Shown here: one piece after another, positions 12,425 through 57,443 of the stretch
Layout of the letters: each line of letters begins with the position of its first letter
How positions within the stretch are numbered: the stretch's first letter is position 1
Sequence record: NZ_AP019725.1
Length of the DNA stretch: 64,000 bases
From: a plasmid
Reading direction: 5' to 3' (one strand)
Notes under the pieces: model-generated
The model's input: only the letters and a program-made list of their open reading frames with translations
Databases searched by the model: none
What the model was told of the DNA's origin: nothing
Translations under genes and position numbers: made by a program

Positions 12425-14971
12425 ATGTTCAATTTTAAAACCATGAGAAAACATTTAGTAACTGTCAGTCTTCTTCTGACCAGTCTTTTTACCAACGCTT
12501 ATGCGTTAAATAATAATTCCGATTTCAATAACGGGTGGAAGTTTACACTTTCTGATTCTGTCTGTTATTCATTTGTAAACTATAATCCGTCTTCGTGGAA
12601 AACAGTGAATCTGCCCCATGATTGGAGTGTTGATCTTCCTTTTGAGTCTACAGCGGAAGGTTGCACCGGTTTCCTTAAAGGTGGAATTGGTTGGTATAGT
12701 AAAACATTTGATACACCCGACAATTTCGTTGATAAGAAATGCTATATAGTTTTTGATGGGGTGTACAATAATTCTGAATATTGGATAAATGGTAGAAAAT
12801 TAGGATTCCATCCATATGGATACTCTCCATTTTTTTATGACATTTCAGATTATTTGAATCCGAAAGGACAAGAAAACAGAATTTCTGTCAGAATTGACCA
12901 TTCCAGATATGCAGACAGCAGATGGTATACCGGTTCGGGTATTTATAGAGAAACTCAGTTGATATTTACTGATAAGTTGCATATTCCTGTTTGGGGAACT
13001 TTTGTAACTACACCTGTAGTTTCCTCTGAAAGAGCAACCGTAAATATTGAGGTAAGGGTCAAGAACGACTATTCCGGACCAAGAGCAGGTGAAGTAAGAA
13101 CTTCTTATTTTGACTCCAAAAATAAGAAAGTAGGCGAGAAACTGACATCTTTTTTGATAGAGGCAGGAAAGGAAATGAAAATCAACCAGTCGGTAGAAAT
13201 ATCAAATCCTTCCCTTTGGGATGTTGATTCTCCTTCAATGTATCTTGCAAAGAGCGAAATTCTTGTAGATGGTAACGTTGTTGATACAAAAGAAACTCCT
13301 TTTGGTATTAGAAGTATAAAGTTTGATGCTAAAAAAGGATTTTTCCTCAACGGAAAGAACATGAAGATTAAAGGTGTTTGTCTTCATCATGATGCAAGTA
13401 TGATTGGAGCTGCATTGGTTGAAGATGTTTGGAGAAGACGATTACAGACTTTAAAAGATGGTGGTTGTAATGCCATTCGTTTGTCACATAATCCTGGTGC
13501 AGATGCTTTCCTGGAGCTTTGTGATGAAATGGGATTTCTTGTTCAGGAAGAATTTTTTGATGAATGGGATTATCCAAAAGATAAGCGATTAAACATGGAT
13601 GAACAGTCCATTGATTATATAACAAGAGGATACTGCGAATATTTTCAGGAATGGGCCGAACGAGACCTTAAGAATGTAATGCTTAGAAGTAGAAATCATC
13701 CATGTATATTTCAGTGGAGTATTGGTAATGAAATAGAATGGACTTATAAAGGATGTAAGGAGTCAACAGGTTTCTTTAGTGCAGATGCCGGTGGTGGATA
13801 TTTCTGGAACCAGCCTCCTTATTCAACTCAGAGAATCAGGGAAGAGTGGGCTAAACAGCCTAAGCAGACTTATGATATTGGTCGCACAGCGAAGAAACTG
13901 GCAGCATGGACTCGTGAGATGGACACAACTCGTCCGGTAACAGCTAATTGTATACTTCCTTCTATAAGTTATGAGACAGGATATATTGATGCTCTTGATG
14001 TAGCCGGATTCAGCTATAGAAGAGTAATGTATGATTATGCCCACAAGAATTATCCTGACAAACCTGCAATGGGTACTGAAAATCTCGGTCAGTGGCATGA
14101 ATGGAAAGCGGTTATCGAACGTGACTATATCCCTGGTATGTTTATATGGACAGGTGTAGATTATTTAGGAGAAGTTGGAACAAAAGGTAGAGAATGGCCA
14201 CAAAGAGCTATCGGATGTGGACTGCTTGATTTGGCAGGATTTGAAAAACCTTCTTTCCATATGATGAAATCACTTTGGACTGATGCGCCATTTATTGCTA
14301 TCTATTCTCAGACAGCCAACAAGTCTTCTTATGTTGAAAAGGATGGAAAGTTTACTGATAAGGATCCTAAAAAGCCTTGGACTCAACGACTTTGGGTTTG
14401 GGAGGATGTAAACAGTCATTGGAATTATACTAAAGGTGAAAAAGTTGTTGTGGAGATATATTCAAACTGCGATGAGATAGAACTATTCCAGAATGGCAAA
14501 TCCTTAGGAAAACGCTTCCTGAAAGATTTTGAGGATCATATCTATAAGTGGTCGGTAGATTTTAAAGATGGAAATATAGTTGCTAAAGGTAAAAAGAACG
14601 GTAAGAAAACAACTTCTGCAATTTATACCACCAAAGAAACAAATTCAATTAAGCTATCAGTTGATAAGGTTGCAGTTGATGCTAATAATACGGATGTGAT
14701 ACATGTTACTGCACAATTGATTGATAGGAACGGAAGAAATATTTCTTGGGAAGAAAAGGAAATAACATTTAATATTGGTGGCAATTACAGATTATTGGGT
14801 GTGGAAAATGGCGATCATCTGAATGTTTTAAACTATAAATCAAATACAGTAAAAACCTATAAAGGAAGAGCATTGCTAGTGTTGCAGGCTACGGACAAGG
14901 CCGGCATTCTGAACATCAATGCAAATTCTGGCAGCATTAGTTCAAATGATTTAAAGGTTGAAGTTAAATGA
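12425..14971 (+). CDS. Glycoside hydrolase family 2 (beta-galactosidase-like)
   Basis: Signal peptide. Motifs [19 protein letters not shown] and WSIGNE (NE acid/base). 848 aa. Confidence 0.85.
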
Positions 14972-14987
14972 TTTAATTATAATAATT

Positions 14988-16196
14988 ATGTTACTGAAGA
15001 ATGTATTAACAATAGTGGGAGGTATAGCGTTGTTTGCCTCCTGTGTAAACCAGCCTTCTGCTACAGTGTCTACTGATGATAGTGCTTATGACCAGCGTAA
15101 AGCGGATTCTTTGGGAATACCCAAAGGAAATAAATTAAGTGCTGCGATGAAACGTGCCATGGAATGGCCGCAGCGTGACAATTCGTGGTTCTTTGAATAT
15201 AAGATGATGCCTTTAAAAGGTGATTTGGCTTATGAGGAAGGTATAGTTAGACGCGACCCAAGTGCTATGATTAAGGTTGGAGACAAGTACTATGTATGGT
15301 ATTCAAAAAGTTATGGTGAAACTCAGGGATTTGCCGGGGATGTTGAAAATGAAAAGGTTTTTCCATGGGACAGATGCGATATATGGTATGCCACAAGTAA
15401 GGATGGTATTACCTGGAAAGAAGAAGGTGTGGCTGTTAAAAGAGGTGAAAAAGGAGCATACGATGACAGATCGGTTTTCACTCCTGAAGTTATGCAGTGG
15501 AATGGTAAGTATTATCTTTGTTACCAGACTGTTAAATCGCCATACACAGTTAGAGTTAAGGAAAATGTTGCTATGGCATGGGCTGATTCTCCTGATGGTC
15601 CGTGGGAAAAGACTGATAAGCCGGTTCTTACCCCATCCGACAATGGCGTTTGGGAAGGAGAAGAGGATAATAGATTTAAAGTAAAAGCTAAAGGTGACTT
15701 TGACAGTCATAAAGTGCATGATCCATGTATCATACCATACAATGGTAAATTCTATCTTTATTATAAAGGTGAAAGAATGGGTGAGGAAATTACCTGGGGA
15801 GGTAGAGAAATCAAACATGGTGTAGCTATAGCCGATAATCCACTTGGTCCTTATACCAAATCAGAGTATAATCCTATAAGCAATAGTGGACACGAGATAT
15901 GTGTATGGCCTTATAAAGGAGGTATAGCATCTTTGATTACAACAGACGGACCGGAAAAGAATACCTTGCAGTGGTCGCCAGACGGCATAAACTTCGAGAT
16001 AATGTCCGTTATACCAGGAGCACCTCATGCTATTGGTCTGAACAGAAGTGCTGATAATGATAAGGAACCTACTGAAATATTGCGTTGGGGATTGACTCAT
16101 CAATACATTACCTATAATTATCAATGCATTATGCGTTTTGAAACATGGACTAAACAGACTCATACTGCAATTGGTGAATCAACAAAGCGAAAATAA
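14988..16196 (+). CDS. GH117-like (GH43-superfamily five-bladed beta-propeller) hydrolase, candidate alpha-1,3-(3,6-anhydro)-L-galactosidase
   Basis: Lipobox LFASC. Propeller-blade motifs are [36 protein letters not shown] and [10 protein letters not shown]. It is a paralog of 54154..55386. Confidence 0.55.
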
Positions 16197-16202: not shown

Positions 16203-18728
16203 ATGAAGAGAAATATCTTGTCTGCGCTTTTGATTATGCTTGGTATTGCATATTCAAATGCGCAGCCGGGCTTCGAATCATTTTCAATGAACAACCAGCT
16301 TGTTAAAGACTTGAGCGGTTATAATTGGAAAATGAAGATGATGCGTCCTGGTGAAGGTGAAAAGCAGGGAATCCATAAAATTTTCCCTGAGGATATTGAG
16401 ACATTGGTTTGGAATCCTGCTAAAGTTCCCGGCGATGTTTACACTGATTTGTGGAAAGCCGGAGCCATAGACGATCCTTATTTTGGCAGGAACTCAGTTA
16501 AAGCACAGTGGGTTCAGCACTATGAATGGTGGTATGCAGCACAGTTTTATGTTACAGAGGATGTAAAGAACAAGTATATCCGTCTTGAATTCGACGGTGT
16601 TGACTATAGCTGCGATGTCTGGCTCAACGGACATTATTTGGGAAGGCATGACGGAGCGTTCGAGAAATTCAATTTTGAAGTAACAGACTACTTAAGAATA
16701 GGTAAGGATGCGCGCCGCGGTGCTAATATGCTTACTGTCAAGCTTAATCCTCCTACTCATATCAATACAGAACTTGGCGGTTTGAAGACTCCATGGTTCG
16801 GCGACTATTGGCGAGACCTGATTCCATTCGGAATTTGGCGTCCTGTGAGACTTGTGACATCCGGTAAGGTTAGGATAGACGATGTTTATGCCCGTACCAG
16901 GATAAACAAGAACTCTAGTGCTGATGTGGATATGGAGATAATGCTTGAAAATACTTCAAGCGAACCAATGTCGATGGATATAACAGCTTCTGTGCAGGGA
17001 TATAATTTTGAGTCGAAACCTATTCTGGTCAAGTTCAAACAGACAGTACCTCCCGGCAAACATATGTATAAGAAGAATTTCCATGTTGGCAAACCTGAAT
17101 TGTGGTGGCCATGGGATATGGGTAAGCAGAATCTGTACATAGCCAGAGTTTCCGCTCAAAACGGAAGTGTGAGACACGATTATAAGGAGGTTAAGTTTGG
17201 TATCAGAGAGGTAACCTCGGCATGGAATCCAGGTTTTAAGAAGGGTGTTGATGTAAGTTTTCCACGTACAACAGTTATAAATGGTAAACCTGTTTTTATC
17301 CGTTCAGCATGCTGGGGAGGCACACCAAATATATTTGTGGGTCGTACAGCTCCCGGAACATACGAGAAACTTCTTGTTTTGGCCAAGGAAGCCAATTTGA
17401 ATAATATCAGAATATTTGGCTGGCATAATCCTGAAATACCTGAATTTTATGAGATATGCGATTCATTAGGTCTAACGGTATGGCAGGATATGTTGCCATT
17501 GGGTTCCGGTAATATTCCAATGGAAAAATCCTATGTAGAGAAAGTATTGCAGGTAGCCAAGAGTGTAGCAATAGAACGTCGTAATCATCCATCGCTCATA
17601 ATGATGGAAGGAGGCGAGGAATATTTCTTGAGAACCAGAGATGTTAAGTTTGCCAATGACTTTCTGTTGCAATTGGGTGATACCCTTCAGCATTATCTTC
17701 CATTGCCTTATGTCCCCGATTCTCCTCTAACATGTGCCGCTTCGCAAGAGGCCGGTTATAAACCTAAGGAGGCAACCCATGCATTGGCGTATTTCTATTC
17801 AATGGGCCGATGGCTGATGGAGGATTGGTACAGAAAGCAGGATTACCCTATCGTACCGGAGTTTGCCATAACCTCCGTACCCAATGTAGAGAGTCTCAAG
17901 AAATTCATTCCTGAAGCTGAGATGTGGCCTCCCGGATTGAGCTGGGGACATCATTGGGCTGATTTGGATAAGCTTAAGATGCAAAACTTCGATACATTCG
18001 GTGAAGAACGTTCCAATGGGACATTGCAGGAGTTTGTAGATGCTACTCAGGATGCTCAAGGTGTAATATTCCAGAATGGTGTAGAGTTCTTCCGACGTCA
18101 GAAACCAAGACTTAGCGGAATAGCCCTTTGTCATTGGATAACTTACTGGCCTGACATGAAGTGGGGTATTGTAGATGCCTACCAACAGCCTAAGAGATCG
18201 TACGATTTTGTTAAGAGAGCCTATCAGCCATTGCTTGTATGTCTTGATTTCACAAGGCGCAGATGGCATAATGATGAAAGCTTCAAAGGTGCAATATGGA
18301 TAGTTAACGACCTTTATAAAGAATATAAGAACTCAAATGTTACTATCCGTATAAAAGACGATGTGGGTAATGTTCTTAAAGAGGCTGACTACAAGGTAAG
18401 TAAGATAGGCGAGAATTGTGCATTTAAACTCACTGATATCAGTTATAATGTTCTGTCTACAGTTAAGAAGATGTTCCATGTTGAACTCACACTGACAGAC
18501 AAGGGCGGTAAAGAAATCTCAACAAATAAATATTTCTTCTTGATTGGCGATCAGGCTGAAGCTACTAAACAGTTTAATGAAATGAATAAAAAGATGTCCA
18601 AGTCATTGCACAAATATACTAACGGAAATTATTACCGATATTATCCTGCCATGATTCAGACAGATGGACAGAATTATAATAGTGAAATTGAAGTTCCTGT
18701 AGCCAAAGGTTTTGGAAAAGCTAAATAG
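16203..18728 (+). CDS. Glycoside hydrolase family 2 (beta-mannosidase/exo-galactosidase-like architecture)
   Basis: Signal peptide. N-terminal sugar-binding motif DVYTDLWKAGAIDDPYFGRN. 841 aa. Ends with a genuine TAG stop. Confidence 0.75.
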   Translation: MKRNILSALLIMLGIAYSNAQPGFESFSMNNQLVKDLSGYNWKMKMMRPGEGEKQGIHKIFPEDIETLVWNPAKVPGDVYTDLWKAGAIDDPYFGRNSVKAQWVQHYEWWYAAQFYVTEDVKNKYIRLEFDGVDYSCDVWLNGHYLGRHDGAFEKFNFEVTDYLRIGKDARRGANMLTVKLNPPTHINTELGGLKTPWFGDYWRDLIPFGIWRPVRLVTSGKVRIDDVYARTRINKNSSADVDMEIMLENTSSEPMSMDITASVQGYNFESKPILVKFKQTVPPGKHMYKKNFHVGKPELWWPWDMGKQNLYIARVSAQNGSVRHDYKEVKFGIREVTSAWNPGFKKGVDVSFPRTTVINGKPVFIRSACWGGTPNIFVGRTAPGTYEKLLVLAKEANLNNIRIFGWHNPEIPEFYEICDSLGLTVWQDMLPLGSGNIPMEKSYVEKVLQVAKSVAIERRNHPSLIMMEGGEEYFLRTRDVKFANDFLLQLGDTLQHYLPLPYVPDSPLTCAASQEAGYKPKEATHALAYFYSMGRWLMEDWYRKQDYPIVPEFAITSVPNVESLKKFIPEAEMWPPGLSWGHHWADLDKLKMQNFDTFGEERSNGTLQEFVDATQDAQGVIFQNGVEFFRRQKPRLSGIALCHWITYWPDMKWGIVDAYQQPKRSYDFVKRAYQPLLVCLDFTRRRWHNDESFKGAIWIVNDLYKEYKNSNVTIRIKDDVGNVLKEADYKVSKIGENCAFKLTDISYNVLSTVKKMFHVELTLTDKGGKEISTNKYFFLIGDQAEATKQFNEMNKKMSKSLHKYTNGNYYRYYPAMIQTDGQNYNSEIEVPVAKGFGKAK

Positions 18729-18752: not shown

Positions 18753-19769
18753 ATGAAAGCAAGTTATTATGAAGGAAATAAAACCTTCACTGTAAAAGAA
18801 AAGGAATTAATTGCACCTGCTAAAGGCGAAGTTAGAATTAAGGTCGCTTATTGTGGTATATGTGGAAGTGATGTTCACATCTTTCATGGTAATATGGATA
18901 GCCGTGTTTCTATCCCGCAGACTATCGGTCACGAAATGTCAGGAGTAATTGATGCTATAGGGGAAGGTGTAGAAGGATATAAAGTAGGTGATAAAGTAGT
19001 TGTTCGCCCTCTCGATAATCGTCTTGAAGATGCTTCTGATAAAGGTTGGAGCCATATCTGTAAAAAACTTAAATTTATTGGTATTGATAGCGAAGGTGCG
19101 TTGCAGCAGTATTGGAACATTATGGCGTTCACTTTACACAAACTTCCGGATGATATCGACCTGAAACTTGCAGCCTTAATTGAACCTTTGGCTGTAGCTT
19201 GTCATGATGTTCGTCGTAGCGGATTGAAAGCCGGTGAAGTTGCCGTAGTTTTAGGGGGTGGTCCAATCGGAGCTTTGGTGGCAATGGTAGCAAAAACAAC
19301 AGGTGCAAAGATTGTTGTTTCTGAAGTTAATCCTGTAAGAATAAAGCTTCTTAAAGAGATGGGATTTGATGTAATCAGTCCAGCTGAACAAGACCTGTTG
19401 GAATATGTCAAGAAAATAAGCAACGGTTCTTTGGCTGATGTCGTCTTTGAGGTTGCCGGTGTTCAGAGTACGGTTAACGCTATGACAGAAATTGCCGGTT
19501 TGCGTGCCCGTATAGTAGGTGTTGCTATACATGCTCAACCAAGACCTGTAGACTTGAAGATGATGTTCTGGCGTGAACTTACATTCATGGGAGCTCGTGT
19601 TTATGAATATGAAGATTATGAAAAAGCTATTGATTTGGTTAATCAGAAAGTTCTTCCGTTGGAAAACATCATCTCTAATGTTCAGCCTTTGACAAATATA
19701 CAGTCATTATTCGAAGAAATCGTAAGCAATCCTAGTGGAATGAAATATTTGGTAGACTGCCAAGGGTAA
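18753..19769 (+). CDS. Zn-dependent medium-chain alcohol dehydrogenase; candidate 2-keto-3-deoxy-L-galactonate 5-dehydrogenase
   Basis: GICGSDVH and GHEMSG zinc sites. Rossmann motif GGGPIGAL. Confidence 0.8.
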   Translation: MKASYYEGNKTFTVKEKELIAPAKGEVRIKVAYCGICGSDVHIFHGNMDSRVSIPQTIGHEMSGVIDAIGEGVEGYKVGDKVVVRPLDNRLEDASDKGWSHICKKLKFIGIDSEGALQQYWNIMAFTLHKLPDDIDLKLAALIEPLAVACHDVRRSGLKAGEVAVVLGGGPIGALVAMVAKTTGAKIVVSEVNPVRIKLLKEMGFDVISPAEQDLLEYVKKISNGSLADVVFEVAGVQSTVNAMTEIAGLRARIVGVAIHAQPRPVDLKMMFWRELTFMGARVYEYEDYEKAIDLVNQKVLPLENIISNVQPLTNIQSLFEEIVSNPSGMKYLVDCQG

Positions 19770-19826
19770 ATAATAAATTAACAAGTGACAAATTACATTA
19801 TTAATGATTTTAAACTAAATAATAAT

Positions 19827-20597
19827 ATGGACTTTTTAAATAAATTCAGTTTGAAGGGCAAGACAGCTCTTGTAACAGGTTGTAAAAGAGGAATAGGTAA
19901 AGGTATGGCAGTAGCTTTGGCTGCTGCAGGTGCTGATATTATCGGTGTTAGTGCTTCATTGGAGCCAAAAGGTAGCGAAGTTGAAAAAGAAGTTAAGGCT
20001 TTGGGTCGTAACTTTAAAGGATACACTTGTGACTTTAGCGACAGAGACGCATTGTATGATTTTATCAATAAAGTTAAGGCTGATTTCCCTGTAATTGATA
20101 TTTTGATTAATAATGCAGGTACTATATTGCGCAAACCGGCAGCCGAACACCCTGACGAGATGTGGGATAAGGTTATTGCTACAAATGAAACAGCTCAGTT
20201 TATTCTGACACGTGAAATCGGAAAGGATATGGTGGCAAGAGGCAATGGTAAAATTGTATTTACAGCTTCTTTGTTGACCTTCCAGGGAGGTATAAATGTA
20301 CCGGGTTATGCTGCAAGTAAAGGTGCTGTTGGTCAGTTGACTATGGCTTTTGCTAATGAATGGGCTGGTAAAGGTGTAAATGTAAACGCTATTGCTCCTG
20401 GTTATATTGCTACCGACAATACAGCTGCTTTGCGTGCAGATTCAGTACGTTCTGAGCAGATTCTTACTCGTATACCTGCCGGACGTTGGGGTACTCCTGA
20501 AGATTTCGGTGGTCCGGTGGTATTCCTTTGCTCAGAAGCTTCTGCTTATATGCATGGAACAATCATGCTGGTTGACGGTGGCTGGATGGGTAGATAA
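19827..20597 (+). CDS. SDR family oxidoreductase, KduD-like (2-dehydro-3-deoxy-D-gluconate 5-dehydrogenase type)
   Basis: TGCKRGIGKG cofactor motif and YAASK catalytic motif. Start set at internal Met MDFLNKF. Confidence 0.8.
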   Translation: MDFLNKFSLKGKTALVTGCKRGIGKGMAVALAAAGADIIGVSASLEPKGSEVEKEVKALGRNFKGYTCDFSDRDALYDFINKVKADFPVIDILINNAGTILRKPAAEHPDEMWDKVIATNETAQFILTREIGKDMVARGNGKIVFTASLLTFQGGINVPGYAASKGAVGQLTMAFANEWAGKGVNVNAIAPGYIATDNTAALRADSVRSEQILTRIPAGRWGTPEDFGGPVVFLCSEASAYMHGTIMLVDGGWMGR

Positions 20598-20629
20598 TAT
20601 TGTTATAAATACTATTTTTTGAAATACTT

Positions 20630-22075
20630 ATGAAGACATATCAGCAATATATTAATGGTGCGTGGGTCGCACCATTAAATGGAAAATATACTGAAGTTTA
20701 TAATCCTTCGGACGACTCAGTTGTCGGAATGGTTGCAAACGGTGATGAGAAAGATGCCGATCTTGCTTTACAGGCAGCACAGGCAGCTCAGAAATCATGG
20801 GCAAAACTAACAGCCAGAAGAAGAGCCGAAATACTTTATGCCTTTATTGAAGAAATAAAGAAAAATAAGGAAGAACTTGCCAAAATGATTTCTACAGAGC
20901 AAGGAAAACTGTTCAAGGTTGCTCAGTTTGAAGTTGATGTTTGTTGTTCTTTTATTGCATATGCATGTGAATGGGCAAGAAGGATAGAAGGCGATATTGT
21001 CCCTTCAGATAATCCTAATGAACATCTTATGATTCAGAAAATTCCGCGTGGTGTGGTAGTGGCAATTACAGCATGGAATTTCCCATTGGCTTTGGCAGGC
21101 AGAAAGATAGGTCCTGCTCTTGTAGCTGGTAATACAATTGTTGTAAAACCTACTACTGAAACCCCTATTGCAACATTGATGTTGGGTGAGATGGCCAAAA
21201 AGGCTGGTGTTCCTGATGGCGTTCTCAATATTATTACCGGTTCAGGTAGAGTTATGGGTACAGCTTTGGTTGAAAATCCTATTACCAAAATGGTCACTAT
21301 GACTGGTAGTACTCCGGCAGGTCAGGCCATTTACCGTTCTGCGGCTAAGAATATTATCCATGTTCAGTTGGAGTTGGGAGGAAAGGCACCTTTCATCGTA
21401 TTCGATGATGCTGATATTGATGCGGCTGTTGATACGGCACTTTCTTCTCGTTTTGATAATTGTGGTCAGGTTTGTACATGTAATGAACGCCTGTATCTTC
21501 ACGAGTCGATATATGATGAATTTATGGCTAAATTCATGGAAAAAGTTAAAGCGATTAAGGTTGGCGACCCATTCGATCCAACATCTGATATGGGACCAAA
21601 GGTCAACAAGAATGAGCTTGAACACATGAAACAGCTTGTAGAAATCAGTTTGAAAGAAGGAGCGACACTGGCATGTGGAGGTAAAGTTCCTGAAGGTGAG
21701 CAATTCCAGAAAGGTAACTGGTTTGAACCTACAGTTCTTACTGATGTGAAACAAAATATGACAATCGTACACGAAGAGTCTTTCGGACCTATACTCCCTG
21801 TTCTGAAATTCTCCGACTATGATGAAGTAATCAATTATGCTAACGATTGCGAATACGGTTTGGCCGCTATGGTATTTACTAATGATCTTAACCGTGTCAT
21901 GAAGTTAAATACCGATCTTGAGTTCGGAGAAATTTACGTAAACCGTCCTCATGGTGAATTGCATCAGGGATTCCACAATGGCTACAAGCTGAGTGGAGCT
22001 GCCGGTGAAGATGGCAAGTATGGTTTCGAACAGTATCTTGAGAAGAAAACATTCTATATCCGTTATAAAGAATAA
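20630..22075 (+). CDS. NAD(P)-dependent aldehyde dehydrogenase; candidate 3,6-anhydro-L-galactose dehydrogenase
   Basis: ALDH family ([15 protein letters not shown], catalytic Cys in GQVCTC). 481 aa. Confidence 0.8.
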
Positions 22076-22079
22076 TAAG

Positions 22080-23174: not shown

Positions 23175-23275
23175 TATCTTCTTTTCTCAATGAGGCTATA
23201 TCAAACATTATATTTGATATAACCTCATTGGTGTTATCAAAAGAATATAACTTAATAACTTTAAAACTATGATAT

Positions 23276-24319: not shown

Positions 24320-24331
24320 CAGAATAAGATT

Positions 24332-26915: not shown

Positions 26916-26928
26916 AACGAAAAATATA

Positions 26929-46399: not shown

Positions 46400-46425
46400 T
46401 TTGATTAACTGAAATTTTTAAAACT

Positions 46426-48204: not shown

Positions 48205-48215
48205 ATTTTAATACG

Positions 48216-49844: not shown

Positions 49845-50873
49845 ATGGAATTGAAATTATTGCTTTTATCATTAGGATTTTTATTTATTTCTTGTAGTTC
49901 CTGTATGCCAGGAGATAATAATGGAGAAGAGAATGGGTCAGAAAACGGATCAAATACAGACCCGGGTGATTCTGAAACAGAATTTGAATATGAATGGGAC
50001 AAGTTTCCTGTACCAGTTTCGGCAGGTACTGGAATGAAATGGGAATTACAGAGTCAGTCGGATGACTTTAACTATACTGCTGACAGTAATAACAAAGGTA
50101 ATTTTGAAAAGAAATGGACCGATTATTACCATGCCAACTGGTCAGGACCAGCTCCTACAATATGGCAGAGAGATCATATTTCTGTCTCAGATGGTTGTTT
50201 GCGAATTGAAACCAGTAGACCTGACGATGTAAAAATAGTTAAGGTTACAAGCGGAGATAAAGAAAAAATGATGCCTGGCACTTATACAGGGTGTGTTACA
50301 TCTAAAACTAGAGTAGTATATCCTGTGTATGTAGAGGCATATGCCAAGATAGCTAACTCAACAATGGCTTCGGATGTATGGATGTTAAGTCCTGATGATA
50401 CTCAAGAAATTGATATTATAGAGGCATATGGTAGCGATAGGGTTGTAGGTGATGATGGACATAAATTTTACGGACCTGATAGAATTCATTTAAGTCATCA
50501 TGTGTTTATTAGAGATCCGTTTCAGGACTATCAACCAACAGATCCTGGAAGTTGGTATAAAGATGTGAATGGAACTATTTGGAGAAATGATTTCCATAGA
50601 GTAGGAGTTTACTGGAAAGATCCATTTAATTTGGAATATTATGTTGATGGTAAAATGGTAAGAAGGGTATCTGGGAAAAATATTATTGACCCCAATGATT
50701 TTACTAAGGGTACCGGACTATCGAAAGAAATGGATATAATTATAAACATGGAAGACCAGAGCTGGAGAGCTATAAGTGGATTGTCTCCGACAAACAAAGA
50801 ATTAATGAATAAAGATAATAATACATTCCTTGTTGACTGGATAAGAATTTATAAACCGGTAGAGGATAAATAA
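49845..50873 (+). CDS. Glycoside hydrolase family 16 (beta-porphyranase/agarase-like)
   Basis: Lipobox FISC. Catalytic motif EIDIIE (ExDxxE). 342 aa. Confidence 0.75.
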   Translation: MELKLLLLSLGFLFISCSSCMPGDNNGEENGSENGSNTDPGDSETEFEYEWDKFPVPVSAGTGMKWELQSQSDDFNYTADSNNKGNFEKKWTDYYHANWSGPAPTIWQRDHISVSDGCLRIETSRPDDVKIVKVTSGDKEKMMPGTYTGCVTSKTRVVYPVYVEAYAKIANSTMASDVWMLSPDDTQEIDIIEAYGSDRVVGDDGHKFYGPDRIHLSHHVFIRDPFQDYQPTDPGSWYKDVNGTIWRNDFHRVGVYWKDPFNLEYYVDGKMVRRVSGKNIIDPNDFTKGTGLSKEMDIIINMEDQSWRAISGLSPTNKELMNKDNNTFLVDWIRIYKPVEDK

Positions 50874-51282: not shown

Positions 51283-53223
51283 ATGAAAAACAGAATTATC
51301 GGCTTGTTTTGTTTTATGGCTGTTCATTTAGCCGCTTCTGCACAGACTCATGTGCAATTGAATTTGAATGTAAAACATAAGCTTGGGGATGTAACAGAGT
51401 TTAACCGTCCTAAGTTTATAAATTTCCATGCTACAATAAATGAGAATTATTGGGATAGTGCAAATAAGATTGCTGATTTACGTGATGACCTTATAAGAAA
51501 ATATGATGTGTATGTGGGGCGTGAAACAGGTATGATCAAGACTGTGCTTCGCAATGTTAAGGAGGATCCCGAAAGACCAGGTTTTGCCGACCCAGATGAT
51601 TTGGCTAGACTATGTAGCCAGAATAAGAAACGGTATGTTCAGAACACAAAGGTACATCCTTACGAGAAATACAGTAATCTGATTCTTTGTAATCAGTTCT
51701 CTCCTTTTTATCCTGACGGAACTAAAACGCTGAAAGGATGGGCTTTATCGCAGAAGGATACTGAAGATGAGCCTTTCGGAACAGCTTCGGGTGAATTTTA
51801 TGGCAGGTATATTAAGGAGTATTTTGGTGAAGGAGGAGAAAGTGGTGAACCTAAGCCTGGGTTCTGTGAGGTAATTAATGAGCCTTTGTGGGATATTTAT
51901 GATAAGCCGAAAGCTCCAAAGTCAAGTATAACCAAATTATTTGAATTCCACTCTACTATTGCCGCACAGGTGAAAAAGTTTAATCCTGATATGAAAGTGG
52001 GAGGTTATTGCACTGCCTTCCCTGATTTTGAACTCCAGAATTTCGGAAGATGGAATGCCAGATGGAAACAGTTTATTGATATTGCCGGAAAGGATATGGA
52101 TTTCTTTACTATTCATTTATACGATTTTCCATGTAAAGATGGTAAACAGATGTACAGAAAAGGCAGTAACATGGAGGCCACAATGGATATGATTGAGCAG
52201 TACAGTATGATAAAGCTTGGTGAGGTTAAACCTCTTATGATTTCGGAATACAGTGCGCAGACGCATGATTACAACAGGAAGCCATGGTCGCCATATCGCG
52301 ACTGGCTGCGACTGAAATCGACCAACTCGATGCTTATGCAGTTTATGGAAAGGACCGATAATATATGTTATGCCATGCCTTTTGCCATGCTCAAATCTGA
52401 GTGGGGATATAATCCCAAAACGGGTCTTGCACATACAGCGAGAATGCTGAGAAGAGAAAACGAGCCTGAAAGCTTTACCGGAGAATATGTTTACTCTGAA
52501 CTTATAAAGTTTTATCAGCTCTGGAAGGATGTGAAGGGTACAAGGGTTGAAACAAACTGTGATAATCCTGACATTATGTGTGATGCATATGTAGACGGGA
52601 AGAATGTGTATTTCATTATAAACAATCTGGATTTCAAACCAGTAGATTTGAATCTTTCTGTAAACGGAACATCTAAGGATGCAAAAAGTATAGAAGTCAG
52701 ACATCTGTACCTTAAAGGTGGGAAAGACGGAGTACCTATGCTTGATGTATACGATGCAAAGAGTCTTGACCACTTTACTTTAGAAACTGAGGCAACATGC
52801 GTCATTTGCTATAATTTCGACAGAAAAGTGAAAATAAACGAAACGATGGAGGAGGTGAAATATTATGCAACGGATTACCTTAAAGAGATTGCTGCTGGCA
52901 AAGAACTGGTTTTCAATATAAATAATGTCAAGAAGACCGAATATGGTGAGGCCGTTATCCGTCTTGGACTTGGCAGAAATCATGGTTTGTCGTTGCTGCC
53001 TGAACTTTTAGTAAACGGTAAGAAAGTTGATATCCCGGATAATTTCAGGGGTGACGTTCAGAAAGACCGTGCTTCTTTCTTCGGTGTTATTGAAGTGCCT
53101 GTGGACTACAGCATTCTTAAGGGAAATAATACTATCTCGTTAAAGTTCCCAGATAATGGCGGTCACGTAAGTACAGTTACTATGCAGATTTTTAATTTTT
53201 CAAATAATATTAGAGGTATATGA
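51283..53223 (+). CDS. Clan GH-A (beta/alpha)8 glycoside hydrolase, probably GH86-like beta-porphyranase/agarase
   Basis: Signal peptide. NEP acid/base motif in CEVINEPLWD. 646 aa with C-terminal beta-sandwich-like region. It sits between two GH16 genes. Confidence 0.5.
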   Translation: MKNRIIGLFCFMAVHLAASAQTHVQLNLNVKHKLGDVTEFNRPKFINFHATINENYWDSANKIADLRDDLIRKYDVYVGRETGMIKTVLRNVKEDPERPGFADPDDLARLCSQNKKRYVQNTKVHPYEKYSNLILCNQFSPFYPDGTKTLKGWALSQKDTEDEPFGTASGEFYGRYIKEYFGEGGESGEPKPGFCEVINEPLWDIYDKPKAPKSSITKLFEFHSTIAAQVKKFNPDMKVGGYCTAFPDFELQNFGRWNARWKQFIDIAGKDMDFFTIHLYDFPCKDGKQMYRKGSNMEATMDMIEQYSMIKLGEVKPLMISEYSAQTHDYNRKPWSPYRDWLRLKSTNSMLMQFMERTDNICYAMPFAMLKSEWGYNPKTGLAHTARMLRRENEPESFTGEYVYSELIKFYQLWKDVKGTRVETNCDNPDIMCDAYVDGKNVYFIINNLDFKPVDLNLSVNGTSKDAKSIEVRHLYLKGGKDGVPMLDVYDAKSLDHFTLETEATCVICYNFDRKVKINETMEEVKYYATDYLKEIAAGKELVFNINNVKKTEYGEAVIRLGLGRNHGLSLLPELLVNGKKVDIPDNFRGDVQKDRASFFGVIEVPVDYSILKGNNTISLKFPDNGGHVSTVTMQIFNFSNNIRGI

Positions 53224-54017
53224 TGAAGACCTTACTATCATTTTTGTCGCTGATGTTTTCAGCAAATTTTGTTTGTAATGCGCAAAACCTTCCGGAGGTT
53301 CCGGAAGGTTTTAAATGGGAAAAGGTGGAAAGCCTTTCGGATGAGTTTGATTACTGGGATGCTACAAAATGGCACAGGTCATTATGGAATTATGACGTAC
53401 CGGTACAGATGGTTGCCGAGAACTCGGGAGTAGATAACGGTTTGCTTTGGATCAAGGCTACACTTGACGATGGCAAGGAAAGGTGGTTTAAGACTTCTAG
53501 GGTTATGTCGAATACGAGAATTTCATATCCGATGTACACAGAATGTTATATGCGTACCGCACATATTTCGGCTTTCAGTACTTTCTGGATGAATAATGGC
53601 AACAGTAATGACAGGGATGAGATAGACATGTGTGAGCATAACTCAAAACCTTCTATTAAGGCACAGGAGAATACACGTCCTTATACTATGTATTCGCAAT
53701 ACTTTGTTGTCAAGAATGGTGTTACAGAAAGAAATAACGGTAACTTCGATAACAGGAAACTCTCTGACGGAAATCCGGCAAAAGGAGTGAAATGGAATGA
53801 AAAGTTCCAAAGAATTGGAGTGTGGTGGAAAGATGCCAACAATATTCAATTTTACTTGAATGGTGAACCTACAGGAAATGTGGTATCAAAACAGGATTTT
53901 ACTCTAGAACTGAATATCATATGGGATTTGTGGACTGCTGATGAGACCTGGACCGGCGGATTGTGTGAAAAGAATGATCTTCTTGATGATAGTATCAATA
54001 CTATGTATGTAGACTGA
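53220..54017 (+). CDS. Glycoside hydrolase family 16 (porphyranase-like)
   Basis: Signal peptide. Catalytic motif EIDMCE (ExDxxE). 265 aa. Confidence 0.75.
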   Translation: MMKTLLSFLSLMFSANFVCNAQNLPEVPEGFKWEKVESLSDEFDYWDATKWHRSLWNYDVPVQMVAENSGVDNGLLWIKATLDDGKERWFKTSRVMSNTRISYPMYTECYMRTAHISAFSTFWMNNGNSNDRDEIDMCEHNSKPSIKAQENTRPYTMYSQYFVVKNGVTERNNGNFDNRKLSDGNPAKGVKWNEKFQRIGVWWKDANNIQFYLNGEPTGNVVSKQDFTLELNIIWDLWTADETWTGGLCEKNDLLDDSINTMYVD

Positions 54018-54153: not shown

Positions 54154-55386
54154 ATGAGAGTAAAGCTTTTAGTATCAGTATTGATAGGAGTTTCTGCAGA
54201 CTTGTTTGCACAGAATCCATTCCCTTATGTTATGCCTAAAGAAAAGCCAACTTTCAAGATGAGTTGCGCTATGAACAGAGTGTATGATAATTACGGAGCT
54301 GCAACTCCACAGTTGAATGAATTATACACGAACTTCAAGTACTCACCGCTTACAGGCTTTGACTATCATAATGATGATGGGACAGTAACACGAAGAGACC
54401 CTTCAAGAATTATTAAGGTAAACGGTAAATACTATATGTGGTACACCAAGCGTTGCACTCCAACAACCTTTGTAGGGACAAAGCTTGCTAATGATACTAT
54501 TCCGTCTGTGGATTGGGACTTGTGTGATATTGCATATGCCACAAGTAAAGATGGTTTTCATTGGGAAGAACAGGGGATAGCTGTACATCGCCCGAAGAAA
54601 CCGGAACTTGGGTGGAGGTCGGTTGCAACTCCGGATGTATTGGTCTGGAAAGGCAAGTATTATTTATATTATCAGGCCTTTTCTGTAATGAGCGGAAGTA
54701 CCGGTCGTGATGACTGCCCAGTTGCAATGTCGTATGCCGATTCGCCTGACGGACCATGGACTCCCGTAAATGAAATCATTATTCCAAACGGTGAACCCGG
54801 TGATTGGGATCAATTTTCTATTCATGACCCTCAACCATTGGTTTATAAAGGGAAAATATATCTATATTATAAATCGGATTATAACGGAAAGGATAATGGC
54901 GGTTTAATCCGCTCTCAGGGTCTTGCCATAGCTGATAATCCTATGGGACCATTCAAAAAATATGAATTGAACCCGATTATCAGTTCCGGACATGAGACTC
55001 AGTTTTTCCGTTTCAAGCAGGGGATAGCCTCGATTATGGCTAAAGACGGGCATGAAAATAATACTATTCAATATTCAGAGGATGGCAAGAATTTCAAGGT
55101 TGCAAGTATTTGTGCCATGATGCCAATTGCTTCAGGACTTTATGACCCGGATGCCTTTACGGATGTACCGTTTGCTAATGGCATAACATGGGGTATTTCC
55201 CATTATAATTTGTGGGGTCGAAACAGAAGAAGTATTTTATTGCGGTTCGACTGTGATTTGAGTATTGATTTCAATGATCCGGAAATGAAAAAGAATGATG
55301 TTCCTTTTTCTTTGGAAGAGTTATATCGAAGGGGATTGACTAAAAAGCAGAAGGAGATTATCTTAAAAAGGGATAGAATAAAATAA
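54154..55386 (+). CDS. GH117-like five-bladed beta-propeller hydrolase (second paralog)
   Basis: Signal peptide. Motifs [36 protein letters not shown] and GKIYLYYKSD are shared with 14988..16196. Confidence 0.55.
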   Translation: MRVKLLVSVLIGVSADLFAQNPFPYVMPKEKPTFKMSCAMNRVYDNYGAATPQLNELYTNFKYSPLTGFDYHNDDGTVTRRDPSRIIKVNGKYYMWYTKRCTPTTFVGTKLANDTIPSVDWDLCDIAYATSKDGFHWEEQGIAVHRPKKPELGWRSVATPDVLVWKGKYYLYYQAFSVMSGSTGRDDCPVAMSYADSPDGPWTPVNEIIIPNGEPGDWDQFSIHDPQPLVYKGKIYLYYKSDYNGKDNGGLIRSQGLAIADNPMGPFKKYELNPIISSGHETQFFRFKQGIASIMAKDGHENNTIQYSEDGKNFKVASICAMMPIASGLYDPDAFTDVPFANGITWGISHYNLWGRNRRSILLRFDCDLSIDFNDPEMKKNDVPFSLEELYRRGLTKKQKEIILKRDRIK

Positions 55387-55797: not shown

Positions 55798-55886
55798 AAC
55801 TGTTACAGAAAACAGAAGAGTTATATTTTTGGAGGTTACAGTTAATGATGATGAAACGAATTTATAAACCTATATAGAAAAAACAT

Positions 55887-57443
55887 ATGAGAACTGATTT
55901 ATTTTTTTATCCGGCAATTGCCGCAGCAGTGCTGTCTTCATGCGGAGGGAAAAAAGACGCTGCAGAAGTGAATAAGAAACCTAATGTATTGTTTATTTAT
56001 GCCGACGATATCGGTTACGGTGATTTGAGCTGTTATGGCGGAAAATCGATTATTACTCCAAATGTGGAGAAACTGGCATCTGAGGGTATAATGTTTACAA
56101 ATGCCCACTGTGGTGCATCTACAAGTACACCATCAAGATATGGAATGCTCACTGGTGAGTATCCGTGGAGAAAGAAAGGTACCGGGATAGCGGCAGGTGA
56201 TGCAGCTATGATTATCAAGCCAAACATATATACTATGGCTGATATGTTTGTTGATGCAGGATATTCGACAGGTGTCATCGGTAAGTGGCATCTTGGTCTT
56301 GGTGATAAGGCTGGTCAGCAGGACTGGAATGGATTGGTTTCTCCAAATCCAAGCGATATCGGGTTTGAATTCTCGCATATAATGGCTGCGACAGCTGACC
56401 GTGTTCCTTGTATTTGGATTGAAAACGGAAGAGCTTTAGGATTATCACCAGATGATCCCGTAGAGGTTAGTTATACCAAGAATTTCCCTGGCGAGCCTAC
56501 CGGAAAAGACAATCCAGAGTTGCTAAGACTTCATCCTTCTCACGGACATGATATGAGTATCGTAAACGGTATTTCACGTATTGGATATATGAGAGGAGGT
56601 AAATCTGCATTATGGAGAGATCAGGATATTCAGGACAGTATCATTGCCAATGCCGTAAGATTTATTGAAGAAAAGTCGGCTTCGGATAAACCTTGGTTCC
56701 TGTATCTGGCTACAAATGATATTCATGTACCTCGTGATCCGCATGAAAGATTTGTCGGAAAAAGCGGACACGGTCTCCGCGGTGATGCTTTGTTGTCTTT
56801 TGACTGGGGTGTAGGCGAAGTTATGAAGACTCTGGAAAGATTAGGTATTGACGAGAATACAATTGTCGTCCTTTCAAGTGATAACGGTCCGGTGATAGAT
56901 GATGGTTATAAGGATCAGGCTGTGGAATTACTTGGCGACCATAAGCCTGCAGGCGACTTGAGAGGTGGCAAGTACAGTAACTATGAGGCTGGCACACGTG
57001 TTCCATGTATCTTGAGATGGAAAAATCACGTTAAACCAGGTGTTAACGATTTGCTTATGTCTCAATTGGACTGGTTTGCTTCATTTGCTGCAATGACTGG
57101 TGTAACTTTACCTGATGGTGCAGCGCCTGACAGTGAGAATCTTCTTGATGCATGGTTGGGTAAATCGGAAAAGGGTAAAGAATATTTTGTAACACAGAAT
57201 ATTCAGAACTTCCTTGGCATAACAGATGGCGAATGGAAGTTTATTCCTAGAAATAATGCTCCTGCTTTGAATGTACAGACTAATACAGAGTTGGGGAATA
57301 GTCCAAAGGATCAGTTATTTAAGTTGAATGGCGACAGGAGTGAATCAGTGAATGTGATTGACAAGAATCCTGAGGTGGCTGCTAAACTTAAAAAAGAGCT
57401 TGAAAGAATAGTCGACAATAGATATTTACAAAATATGAATTGA
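55887..57443 (+). CDS. Sulfatase (Ser-type signature S-T-P-S-R)
   Basis: Lipobox SSCGG. Metal-binding FIYADDIGYGD. Signature STSTPSRYGMLTGEYP. 518 aa. Confidence 0.85.
   Translation: MRTDLFFYPAIAAAVLSSCGGKKDAAEVNKKPNVLFIYADDIGYGDLSCYGGKSIITPNVEKLASEGIMFTNAHCGASTSTPSRYGMLTGEYPWRKKGTGIAAGDAAMIIKPNIYTMADMFVDAGYSTGVIGKWHLGLGDKAGQQDWNGLVSPNPSDIGFEFSHIMAATADRVPCIWIENGRALGLSPDDPVEVSYTKNFPGEPTGKDNPELLRLHPSHGHDMSIVNGISRIGYMRGGKSALWRDQDIQDSIIANAVRFIEEKSASDKPWFLYLATNDIHVPRDPHERFVGKSGHGLRGDALLSFDWGVGEVMKTLERLGIDENTIVVLSSDNGPVIDDGYKDQAVELLGDHKPAGDLRGGKYSNYEAGTRVPCILRWKNHVKPGVNDLLMSQLDWFASFAAMTGVTLPDGAAPDSENLLDAWLGKSEKGKEYFVTQNIQNFLGITDGEWKFIPRNNAPALNVQTNTELGNSPKDQLFKLNGDRSESVNVIDKNPEVAAKLKKELERIVDNRYLQNMN

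What the first reader, a model, noticed from the sequence alone, without database searches (positions are those of the whole stretch)
12425..57443. A 45-kb red-algal galactan (porphyran/agarose-type) PUL bracketed by conjugative-element genes
The enzyme set is unusual for a gut Bacteroidales genome and diagnostic for sulfated red-algal galactans. It holds three GH16 with ExDxxE, a GH86-like clan GH-A enzyme, two GH117-like propellers, three GH2, a GH29, three sulfatases, susC/susD/SGBP and an HTCS regulator. On one side are CTnDOT-type tra genes (1-4.2 kb) plus RadC and small CTn proteins. On the other is a second mobile module (Xis-like HTH, umuDC, HU). This matches the reported marine-to-gut transfer of porphyranase loci on an integrative conjugative element in Bacteroides plebeius. 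This copy also carries extra IS insertions and pseudogenes, suggesting ongoing decay or remodelling.
Basis: partly seen in the sequence, partly recalled or inferred. Interest (0 to 1): 0.65.

Follow-up and report, generated by a model that had tools for sequence, protein, structure and literature searches.

The report
Known Bacteroides agarose-digestion locus on plasmid

Summary
Window 12425-57443 holds three GH16, one GH86, two GH117, three GH2, one GH29, three sulfatases, SusC/SusD/SGBP and an HTCS regulator.

It is not new. Gene for gene it is the Ag-PUL (np1_33 to np1_4) of B. uniformis NP1 (Pluvinage 2018). All 20 published NP1 cloning primers map to the expected positions near the gene ends. 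Six proteins match NP1-type crystal structures at a bit score per residue that implies near-identity. The exact GH86 protein is indexed in 7262 blocks of the assembly collection.

[quoted passage not shown] The B. plebeius enzymes are only distant to moderate homologues, and the window has no tRNA or integrase. Both flanks match, at 96-97%, one circular 62-kb B. uniformis plasmid that lacks the PUL. This agrees with Pudlo et al., who placed this PUL on the 124-kb plasmid pBUN1.

"Extra IS insertions" is not supported. The IS630/IS982 nest is np1_13-16 and is in every copy that could be checked here, and the window lacks an IS256-family insertion that NP1 has. Some decay is real: sulfatase np1_12 carries Q51*, umuC has an in-frame stop, and a 5-kb helicase-resolvase segment is deleted.

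Verdict: already known, low interest.

The parts
168..3660 (+). Distal end of the plasmid T4SS operon: a 211-aa protein (168-803), TraM (811-1866), TraN/DUF4138 (1925-3124) and an M23 peptidase (3133-3660)
   Evidence: Pfam. 96.4% identical to the circular B. uniformis plasmid pBuniCL06T06-1, positions 1350-6656. In related contigs a VirB4-like TraG ATPase and TrbL lie upstream.
4308..8246 (.). Accessory and decayed region: InlB-repeat protein (4308-4910), 5'-truncated PD-(D/E)XK nuclease (5367-6041), AAA_14/DUF4143 ATPase (6233-7525), C-terminal remnant of a UvrD-like helicase-exonuclease (7678-8115, minus strand), and a deletion junction at 8241-8246
   Evidence: Pfam. Relative to L046, 5,049 bp are missing: most of the helicase, three small genes and a resolvase. 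The junction shows CAGCAT microhomology.
8838..11586 (-). Small plasmid genes, including DUF6956 (10377-10742) and a RadC-like JAB protein (10978-11586)
   Evidence: Pfam. Conserved to the left of GH2C in most copies.
12425..14971 (+). GH2C (np1_33), exo-beta-galactosidase acting on agaro-oligosaccharides
   Evidence: Pfam GH2. PDB 5T9A/5T9G, 1961 bits over 825 aa. NP1 cloning primers map at 12500 and 14971.
14988..16196 (+). GH117B (np1_32), alpha-1,3-(3,6-anhydro)-L-galactosidase
   Evidence: PDB 5TA7/5TA9, 905 bits over 379 aa. Primers map.
16203..18728 (+). GH2B (np1_31)
   Evidence: Pfam. Primers map.
18753..26433 (+). Cytoplasmic 3,6-anhydro-L-galactose pathway and transporter: Zn-ADH (18753-19769), SDR/KduD-like (19827-20597), AHG dehydrogenase (20630-22075), AHG cycloisomerase (22080-23174), GalM (23276-24319), RhaT-like importer (24332-25354), KdgK (25414-26433)
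   Evidence: Pfam. Assigned as np1_24-30 in Pluvinage 2018.
26845..29388 (+). GH2A (np1_22). The small ORF 26514-26915 (np1_23) overlaps its 5' end.
   Evidence: Pfam. Primers map at 26989 and 29388.
29408..31180 (+). GH29 (np1_21), predicted exo-alpha-L-galactosidase
   Evidence: Pfam. PDB 7SNK and 7LJJ 'Exo-alpha-L-galactosidase', about 990 bits over about 540 aa. This is a close homologue, not an identical sequence.
31518..32900 (+). GH16C (np1_20), beta-porphyranase, motif ELDICE
   Evidence: Best PDB hits are the porphyranases 4AWD, 3JUU and 4ATE. Motif. Primers map.
32991..34601 (+). S1_11-type sulfatase, exo-L-galactose-6-sulfatase
   Evidence: PDB 7LHA/7LJ2 'Exo-L-galactose-6-sulfatase', 1220 bits over 520 aa.
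34782..38888 (-). Hybrid two-component system regulator (np1_17)
   Evidence: Pfam Reg_prop, Y_Y_Y, HisKA, HATPase_c, Response_reg and HTH_18.
38911..40933 (-). IS630-family transposase remnant (DDE_3 part 38911-39384, HTH part 40517-40933), interrupted by the IS982 element. Corresponds to np1_16 and np1_13.
   Evidence: Pfam. It does not close into one ORF after removing IS982 in silico. Present in all eight copies recovered around the HTCS, truncated by a contig end in one.
39394..40413 (+). IS982-family element with 33-nt terminal inverted repeats and a 7-bp target duplication, TAAAGTT. Its transposase is broken by a frameshift and a stop. Corresponds to np1_14/15.
   Evidence: 95.3% identical to an annotated IS982 transposase on a B. 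faecis plasmid.
41117..42541 (-). Sulfatase np1_12. In this copy it is a pseudogene with Q51* (TAG at 42389-42391). The leftover ORF 41117-42349 lacks the signal peptide and the N-terminal DD motif that by position is the metal-binding site.
   Evidence: The intact form is 474 aa in 4 related loci. An independent +1 frameshift occurs in 6 others.
43343..49775 (+). SusC-like TonB-dependent transporter (43343-46399), SusD-like (46426-48204), SusE-like SGBP (48216-49775). Correspond to np1_11, np1_10 and np1_9.
   Evidence: Pfam. NP1_9 primers map. Agarose binding was measured by Pluvinage 2018.
49845..50873 (+). GH16B (np1_8), surface endo-beta-agarase, motif EIDIIE
   Evidence: PDB 5T9X, 758 bits over 324 aa. 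Motif.
51283..53223 (+). GH86 (np1_7), endo-beta-agarase
   Evidence: PDB 5TA0/5TA1, 1484 bits over 628 aa. Pfam Porphyrn_cat_1 and BPA_C.
53220..54017 (+). GH16A (np1_6), motif EIDMCE
   Evidence: Best PDB hit is 6HY3 beta-agarase C, 324 bits. Primers map.
54154..55386 (+). GH117A (np1_5)
   Evidence: Best PDB hit is 4U6D, 552 bits. GH117B-type enzymes score about 225 bits.
55887..57443 (+). Sulfatase np1_4
   Evidence: Pfam Sulfatase. Best PDB hit is 7OZE, 740 bits.
57522..63584 (.). Plasmid accessory arc: np1_3 (57522-57785, plus strand), HTH_17 (57958-58179), DUF2582 (58519-58734), cyclase (59387-59935), umuC with an in-frame stop at 60785-60787 (60161-61432), umuD (61429-61878), HU (62287-62619), and a 317-aa protein (62631-63584)
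   Evidence: Continues 100% into L062. From about 3.2 kb beyond the window end, L062 matches the mobilisation module of pBuniCL06T06-1 at 97.1%.

Best explanation
The region is a copy of the B. uniformis NP1-type agarolytic PUL (Ag-PUL), carried as cargo on a conjugative plasmid backbone of the pBUN1 / pBuniCL06T06-1 kind.

Mechanism, taken from the published biochemistry of proteins that are near-identical here:
1. Surface GH16B cuts agarose and GH16C cuts porphyran.
2. SusC, SusD and the SGBP bind and import the oligosaccharides.
3. In the periplasm, GH86 cuts them further. GH117B removes non-reducing 3,6-anhydro-L-galactose, and GH2C removes beta-galactose.
4. The S1_11 sulfatase and GH29 handle L-galactose-6-sulfate ends from porphyran blocks.
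5. A RhaT-like importer and seven cytoplasmic enzymes convert anhydrogalactose to central metabolites.
6. The HTCS switches the locus on.

The tra genes on the left and the umuDC/HU genes on the right are two arcs of one circular plasmid backbone, not ICE ends. This copy differs from strain NP1 in lacking an IS256-family insertion, and it carries a nonsense allele of sulfatase np1_12. Identity and gene order are shown here. Enzyme functions come from the literature. The plasmid location of this particular copy is inferred from homology of its flanks.
For: - All 20 NP1 cloning primers map to the expected positions near the gene ends, 19 with no mismatch. The RT-PCR primers that could be mapped lie in collinear order.
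- The gene list equals Supplementary Table 1 of PMC5849685.
- PDB matches at about 2.35 bits per residue: 5T9X, 5TA0/5TA1, 5T9A, 5TA7 and 7LHA.
- The AHG pathway genes are present.
- Metagenome and isolate contigs are 99.9-100% identical over 16-22 kb.
- Window 1-5305 matches the circular plasmid NZ_CP072237.1 at 96.4%. The window's rightward extension matches the same plasmid's mob/T4CP module at 97.1%.
- The circular P. vulgatus plasmid NZ_CP103198.1 holds window 27422-63876 at 99.7-99.8%.
- Pudlo et al. report this PUL on the 124-kb plasmid pBUN1, with divergent mobilisation genes that lack TraJ.
- The window has no tRNA and no integrase among the 49 ORFs of at least 100 aa scanned with Pfam, nearly all the non-overlapping ones.
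Against: - The window holds no replication gene and neither end of a replicon, so circularity of this copy is not shown.
- pBUN1 itself was not in any searchable collection, so direct identity to it is untested.
- Some related contigs place parts of the PUL next to apparently non-plasmid genes: TamB/Omp85 in L052, capsule genes in L008 and ABC transporters in L005. Integrated or rearranged copies may therefore exist.
- pBuniCL06T06-1 encodes tyrosine recombinases, so integration of this backbone is not excluded.
- Identity to the PDB chains is inferred from bit scores, not from printed alignments.
Confidence: 0.9

Rival explanations
1. One reading: this is a copy or variant of the B. plebeius porphyran PUL carried on its tRNA-Lys-integrating ICE.
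For: The locus contains porphyran-active parts related to B. plebeius enzymes: S1_11 sulfatase against 7SNJ at 940 bits, GH29 against 7SNK at 999 bits, GH117B against 4AK5 at 770 bits, and GH16C with best hit 4AWD. Bacteroidetes-type TraM and TraN genes lie nearby.
Against: The core endo-enzymes are only distant relatives of the B. plebeius ones: GH86 against 4AW7 at 263 bits compared with 1484 bits to BuGH86, and GH16C against 4AWD at 184 bits. The window has no tRNA, and no integrase among the ORFs scanned. The flanks match circular plasmids. Pudlo et al. treat the two loci and their carriers as independent transfer events.
Confidence: 0.02
2. It is the NP1-type Ag-PUL, but in this genome it is integrated in the chromosome (an ICE or an integrated plasmid) rather than on a free plasmid.
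For: Pluvinage 2018 assumed a chromosomal insertion. Some contigs join PUL parts to non-plasmid-looking genes (L004, L005, L008, L052). The related backbone plasmid encodes tyrosine recombinases.
Against: The window and the contigs 100% identical to it (L006, L050, L062, L069) show only plasmid-backbone genes for 10 kb beyond each end, with no junction to housekeeping genes. Among the lookups that reported contig lengths for this window-type configuration, the longest were about 70-122 kb, which is plasmid-sized.
Confidence: 0.08

Closest known systems
Ag-PUL (np1_1-33) of Bacteroides uniformis NP1 (Pluvinage et al. 2018, Nat Commun 9:1043, PMC5849685)
   Same: Same genes in the same order and orientation. 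The published cloning and RT-PCR primers match. GH16B, GH86, GH117B, GH2C and the S1_11 sulfatase are near-identical to the crystallised proteins. The IS630/IS982 nest is the same (np1_13-16). As in the window, sulfatase np1_12 is listed as 'cytoplasmic', meaning no signal peptide was annotated.
   Different: The window lacks the IS256-family transposase between the HTCS and the S1_11 sulfatase, which NP1's 'np1_19' RT-PCR primers target. Left of the PUL it has a 5-kb helicase-resolvase deletion that many other copies lack.
Plasmid pBUN1 (124 kb) of B. uniformis NBRC 113350 and related circular Bacteroidales plasmids (pBuniCL06T06-1, NZ_CP072237.1; P. vulgatus BFG-201 plasmid, NZ_CP103198.1)
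   Same: The literature places the Ag-PUL on a large circular plasmid. The window's left tra arc and the mob module just beyond its right end match pBuniCL06T06-1 at 96-97%. The right 36 kb of the window matches the P. vulgatus plasmid at 99.7-99.8%.
   Different: pBUN1 itself could not be compared because it is absent from the collections. pBuniCL06T06-1 has no PUL: about 9.7 kb of other genes sit where the window-type element has about 62 kb. The P. vulgatus plasmid has only the PUL from mid-GH2A onward, joined next to a resolvase gene, and its tra module is different.
Porphyran PUL / ICE of Bacteroides (Phocaeicola) plebeius DSM 17135 (Hehemann et al. 2010, 2012)
   Same: Both are red-algal galactan PULs of marine ancestry on mobile DNA, enriched in East Asian gut microbiomes. 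They share enzyme families (GH16, GH86, GH117, GH2, GH29, S1_11). The S1_11/GH29 pair shows moderate to high similarity.
   Different: It is a different locus. The endo-enzymes are distant paralogues, the specificity is mainly agarose, and the window carries a full anhydrogalactose pathway in the cluster. The carrier also differs: a plasmid backbone rather than a tRNA-Lys ICE.

Membership tests
B. uniformis NP1-type Ag-PUL | Gene content and order np1_4 to np1_33 | tested here: met
   Pfam and PDB annotation of every ORF compared with Supplementary Table 1. The only difference is the missing IS256-family insertion.
B. uniformis NP1-type Ag-PUL | Nucleotide identity to NP1 DNA at the published primer sites | tested here: met
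   All 20 cloning primers map at the expected offsets, 19 with no mismatch. Most RT-PCR primers map collinearly. Those that did not map are attributed here to errors in the machine-read supplement, apart from the np1_19 pair, which targets the IS256-family insertion.
B. uniformis NP1-type Ag-PUL | Proteins identical to the crystallised BuGH16B, BuGH86, BuGH117B, BuGH2C and exo-L-galactose-6-sulfatase | tested here: met
   About 2.35 bits per aligned residue to 5T9X, 5TA0/5TA1, 5TA7, 5T9A and 7LHA. Residue-level alignments were not printed.
B. uniformis NP1-type Ag-PUL | Confers growth on agarose and is induced by agarose | not testable with these tools
   Shown for NP1 in PMC5849685. Not testable for the source of this window.
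B. plebeius porphyran PUL / ICE | Orthologues of BpGH16B and BpGH86A at high identity | tested here: not met
   4AWD 184 bits and 4AW7 263 bits, compared with 758-1484 bits to the B. uniformis structures.
B. plebeius porphyran PUL / ICE | Integration at tRNA-Lys, with an integrase and att repeats | tested here: not met
   No tRNA in the window. No integrase domain among the 49 ORFs of at least 100 aa scanned. No integrase within 10 kb beyond either end in identical contigs. Boundaries further out could not be examined.
pBUN1-type conjugative plasmid carrying the Ag-PUL | Backbone homology on both sides of the cargo to a circular plasmid | tested here: met
   Window 1-5305 matches NZ_CP072237.1 1350-6656 at 96.4%. 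The right-end extension matches 16371-22684 at 97.1%. NZ_CP103198.1 covers 27422-63876.
pBUN1-type conjugative plasmid carrying the Ag-PUL | The molecule that holds this window is circular and extrachromosomal | not testable with these tools
pBUN1-type conjugative plasmid carrying the Ag-PUL | Sequence identity to pBUN1 itself | not tested
   pBUN1 was not returned by the PLSDB searches. Only the literature statement is available.
Bacteroidota polysaccharide utilisation locus (Sus-like) | Adjacent susC/susD pair with CAZymes and a dedicated regulator | tested here: met
   SusC (Plug, CarbopepD_reg), SusD_RagB, HTCS and 10 GH genes.

The most novel reading that the evidence does not exclude
The most novel reading the evidence leaves open is about the population of copies, not the locus itself. 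The Ag-PUL plasmid family may be in active modular flux in human guts. Two observations point that way. First, sulfatase np1_12 has been knocked out at least twice independently (Q51* and a +1 frameshift in an A-run, with intact alleles still circulating), which suggests relaxed or diet-dependent selection on one desulfation step. Second, breakpoints recur next to a resolvase gene: window 8241-8246, 8742, and position 27422 in the P. vulgatus plasmid. These rearrangements produce truncated PUL variants that lack the agarose/AHG half. If real, this would be a natural experiment on which parts of a horizontally acquired seaweed pathway are kept in different hosts and diets.
Probability: 0.35. 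Interest if true: 0.25.

Novelty: already known. Interest (0 to 1): 0.1.

Why it matters
It matters mainly as a correct annotation. The window can be labelled as the experimentally characterised B. uniformis-type agarose/porphyran PUL on a pBUN1-like plasmid backbone, and its enzyme functions can be transferred from crystal structures and assays. The correction of carrier type matters for estimating how this dietary trait spreads between gut species: this is a plasmid backbone, not the B. plebeius ICE. The allele and rearrangement differences seen among copies are minor, but they could serve as markers for tracking lineages of the element in metagenomes.

Tried and rejected
- Pfam gave no hit at E<=0.001 for the three GH16 proteins or the SGBP, and called GH117 'GH43'. 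PDB sequence searches resolved these.
- PLSDB megablast did not return pBUN1, so direct comparison was impossible. Related plasmids were used instead.
- The GTDB species-representative scan gave only one 100% hit, on a 38-kb contig binned as a 'Clostridia bacterium SZUA-378' MAG. This is most likely mis-binning or contamination. All other hits were 63% or lower, so it did not identify the host.
- I checked whether the carrier was the pervasive Bacteroidales plasmid pMMCAT (bioRxiv 2024.04.29.590671). That paper has no link to seaweed PULs, so this idea was rejected.
- tRNA and Rfam scans of the whole window found nothing.
- I tested whether removing IS982 in silico, with one copy of the target duplication, restores an intact IS630 transposase. 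It does not: three stops remain.
- A GH29 review (PMC10154630) had nothing on the L-galactosidases.

Full report
**Observation.** ORF listing and Pfam scans confirm a plus-strand run of carbohydrate genes from 12425 to 34601 and from 43343 to 57443. Between them, on the minus strand, lie an HTCS regulator (34782-38888), transposase fragments and a sulfatase. Pfam recognises the three GH2, the GH29, the three sulfatases, SusC, SusD, the HTCS and the two porphyranase-type accessory domains of the GH86. It misses the GH16s and calls the GH117s GH43-like. Sequence searches against solved structures fill these gaps:

| Window coordinates | Best PDB matches |
|---|---|
| 31518-32900 | porphyranases 4AWD, 3JUU, 4ATE |
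| 49845-50873 | 5T9X (758 bits over 324 aa), then beta-agarases |
| 53220-54017 | beta-agarase C, 6HY3 |
| 51283-53223 | 5TA0/5TA1 (1484 bits over 628 aa) |

The three GH16s carry ELDICE, EIDIIE and EIDMCE. It omitted the block 18753-26433: Zn-ADH, SDR, aldehyde dehydrogenase, MR/MLE cycloisomerase, GalM, RhaT and KdgK. This block is the cytoplasmic 3,6-anhydro-L-galactose route and the most agarose-specific part of the cluster.

**Identity.** The PDB entries with near-maximal scores all belong to the B. uniformis NP1 agarose work. They are 5T9X (GH16B), 5TA0/5TA1 (GH86), 5T9A (GH2C, 1961 bits over 825 aa), 5TA7 (GH117B, 905 bits over 379 aa) and 7LHA (exo-L-galactose-6-sulfatase, 1220 bits over 520 aa).

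Pluvinage et al. 2018 (PMC5849685) define the Ag-PUL as np1_1-33. Their Supplementary Table 1 lists the window's order read from right to left:
- cyclase, DUF2582, an unknown gene, sulfatase
- GH117A, GH16A, GH86, GH16B
- SusE-like, SusD-like and SusC-like proteins, sulfatase
- four transposase fragments, HTCS, an unknown gene, sulfatase
- GH16C, GH29, GH2A, an unknown gene
- KdgK, RhaT, GalM, the MR-like enzyme, AldA, KduD, MDR
- GH2B, GH117B, GH2C

I mapped their primers onto the window. All 20 cloning primers land at the expected offsets, 19 with no mismatch. For example, GH2C_F is at 12500, which is nucleotide 76 of the gene, and GH2A_F is at 26989, which is nucleotide 145. The RT-PCR primers that could be mapped are collinear; most of the rest appear garbled in the machine-read supplement. 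The finding's interval 12425-57443 is therefore np1_33 to np1_4 of a published, transcriptionally and structurally characterised locus.

**How it works (from the literature, applied to near-identical proteins).**
- Surface lipoproteins GH16B and GH16C make the first cuts in agarose and porphyran.
- GH86, GH117B and GH2C complete the breakdown to galactose and anhydrogalactose.
- np1_24-30 convert anhydrogalactose in the cytoplasm.
- The HTCS is the likely inducer-sensing regulator.
- The block GH2A-GH29-GH16C-S1_11 is the porphyran-side module. The S1_11 sulfatase and GH29 are close homologues of the B. plebeius and other exo-L-galactose-6-sulfatase / exo-alpha-L-galactosidase pair.

**Carrier.** Three lines of evidence argue against that.

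1. The B. plebeius endo-enzymes are distant: 4AW7 scores 263 bits and 4AWD 184 bits.
2. The window has no tRNA, and Pfam found no integrase among the 49 ORFs of at least 100 aa that were scanned.
3. Both flanks are plasmid backbone.
   - Window 1-5305 (a T4SS protein, TraM, TraN, M23 peptidase) is 96.4% identical to the circular 62-kb B. uniformis plasmid pBuniCL06T06-1, positions 1350-6656.
   - Contig L062 is 100% identical to window 52631-64000 and extends it by 9.6 kb. Its extension matches positions 16371-22684 of the same plasmid at 97.1%. That stretch holds a BfmA/BtgA mobilisation protein, a DUF5712 protein, the type IV coupling protein and a C10 peptidase.
   - In the PUL-less plasmid these two arcs are 9.7 kb apart. 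In the window-type element they are about 62 kb apart, with the PUL in between.
   - A circular 76-kb P. vulgatus plasmid (NZ_CP103198.1) carries window 27422-63876 at 99.7-99.8%, followed by a relaxase, MobC, ParA and a T4SS.

This agrees with Pudlo et al. (bioRxiv 10.1101/2020.06.09.142968). They report that the genomic context was unresolved in NP1, that the PUL lies on the 124-kb circular plasmid pBUN1 in strain NBRC 113350, and that its mobilisation genes are divergent and lack TraJ. I could not compare with pBUN1 directly, and circularity of this copy is inferred, not shown.

**IS elements and decay.**
- The IS982-family element spans 39394-40413. It has 33-nt inverted repeats and a 7-bp TAAAGTT duplication, and its transposase is broken.
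- It sits inside an IS630-family transposase gene (38911-39384 and 40517-40933).
- This nest is np1_13-16. It appears in seven of the eight copies recovered around the HTCS, and the eighth contig ends inside it. The alignment to the P. vulgatus plasmid also runs unbroken across it. It is therefore ancestral to the gut lineage, not extra here.
- NP1's 'np1_19' RT-PCR primers match an IS256-family transposase that sits between the HTCS and the S1_11 sulfatase in L055-57, L059 and L060. That insertion is absent from the window. This copy therefore has one IS fewer than the reference strain.

Real lesions in the window are:
- Sulfatase np1_12 with CAG to TAG at codon 51 (window 42391). The remaining 410-aa ORF lacks the signal peptide and the N-terminal DD motif that by position is the metal-binding site.
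- umuC with an in-frame stop at 60785-60787, seen in the window. The same split ORFs are called in the related copies.
- A 5'-truncated PD-(D/E)XK nuclease gene.
- A 5,049-bp deletion with CAGCAT microhomology at 8241-8246. It removed most of a UvrD-like helicase-exonuclease gene, three small genes and a resolvase.

Across the related loci, np1_12 is intact in 4, carries Q51* in 7, and carries an independent +1 frameshift in an A-run in 6. One locus, L057, appears to carry both changes.

**Distribution and origin.** The exact GH86 protein is indexed in 7262 blocks of the assembly collection, and contigs 99.9-100% identical to the window are common in human gut metagenomes. Among GTDB species representatives the next-best GH86 relatives are Rikenellaceae MAGs (59-63%) and marine Flavobacteriia. 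The closest of these is Jejuia at 52-53%, where SusC, SusD, GH2C and S1_11 homologues lie nearby. Aquimarina follows at 43-46%. This fits a marine Bacteroidota ancestry with no close donor sampled, as already stated in the literature.

**Verdict.** It is wrong about which published locus this is, about the type of carrier, and about the IS load. The locus is already known in detail, so interest is low. The only mildly new material is the polymorphism among copies: the sulfatase alleles and the rearrangements next to the resolvase gene.

Noticed in passing
window 41117-42541; L001-L010, L012, L054-L061: Sulfatase np1_12 exists as three alleles among near-identical copies: intact 474 aa (4 loci), Q51* (the window plus 7 loci), and a +1 frameshift in an A-run near codon 28 (6 loci). 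L057 appears to carry both lesions. This suggests repeated inactivation of one desulfation step.
   Followed up: partly
window 34601-34792; L055-L057, L059, L060: Some copies, and strain NP1 judging from its RT-PCR primers, carry a 404-aa IS256-family (Transposase_mut) insertion between the HTCS and the S1_11 sulfatase. The window does not.
   Followed up: yes
PMC5849685, Supplementary Tables 1 and 3: The paper's RT-PCR primer numbering is shifted by one relative to its annotation table after np1_17. The np1_17 and np1_18 primers both lie in the HTCS, np1_19 targets the IS256 transposase, np1_20 targets the sulfatase, and np1_33 targets GH117B. No primer pair appears to target GH2C.
   Followed up: partly
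window 8241-8246, 8735-8742 and 27422; L011 23749-23867; L046, L047: Breakpoints recur next to a resolvase gene. One is the 5-kb deletion in the window. Another is a roughly 160-bp indel at 8742. In L047, window position 34792 is joined directly to 8742. In the P. vulgatus plasmid the resolvase is joined to mid-GH2A at 27422. These may mark a recombination hot spot that generates truncated PUL variants.
   Followed up: partly
L013 (QKAS01000065.1, 'Clostridia bacterium SZUA-378' MAG): This contig carries GH16B through sulfatase np1_4 at 99.8-100% identity to the window, in a MAG labelled Clostridia. It is most likely a mis-binned or contaminating Bacteroides plasmid contig. It also has a 49-bp deletion at window 50887-50936 and a roughly 450-bp insertion at about 54020.
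   Followed up: no
L004 (222,922-bp contig), L005, L008, L052: Parts of the PUL occur in other contexts. L004 has a truncated SusC with different flanks. L005 has ABC transporters after DUF2582. In L008 the PUL ends after GH16A, next to a helicase and capsule genes. L052 has IS21 inserted in RadC, next to TamB/Omp85. These could be chromosomal or rearranged copies.
   Followed up: no
window 60161-61432 (minus strand): umuC is a single 424-codon reading frame interrupted by one in-frame stop at codon 216. The same split is called in the related copies, while umuD next to it is intact.
   Followed up: partly
window 59135-60049: Short stretches around the cyclase gene match small mobilisable Bacteroides plasmids (the cepA/bla-bearing 5-11 kb plasmids, near their DUF5712 and BfmA/BtgA genes) at about 90%. 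This may be a shared oriT or a recombination remnant.
   Followed up: no
L014, L015, L017 (Rikenellaceae MAGs): The closest non-identical GH86 relatives (59-63%) are in Rikenellaceae MAGs, not marine Flavobacteriia. L014 also has GH117A-like and HTCS-like neighbours. The habitat of these MAGs was not determined.
   Followed up: partly
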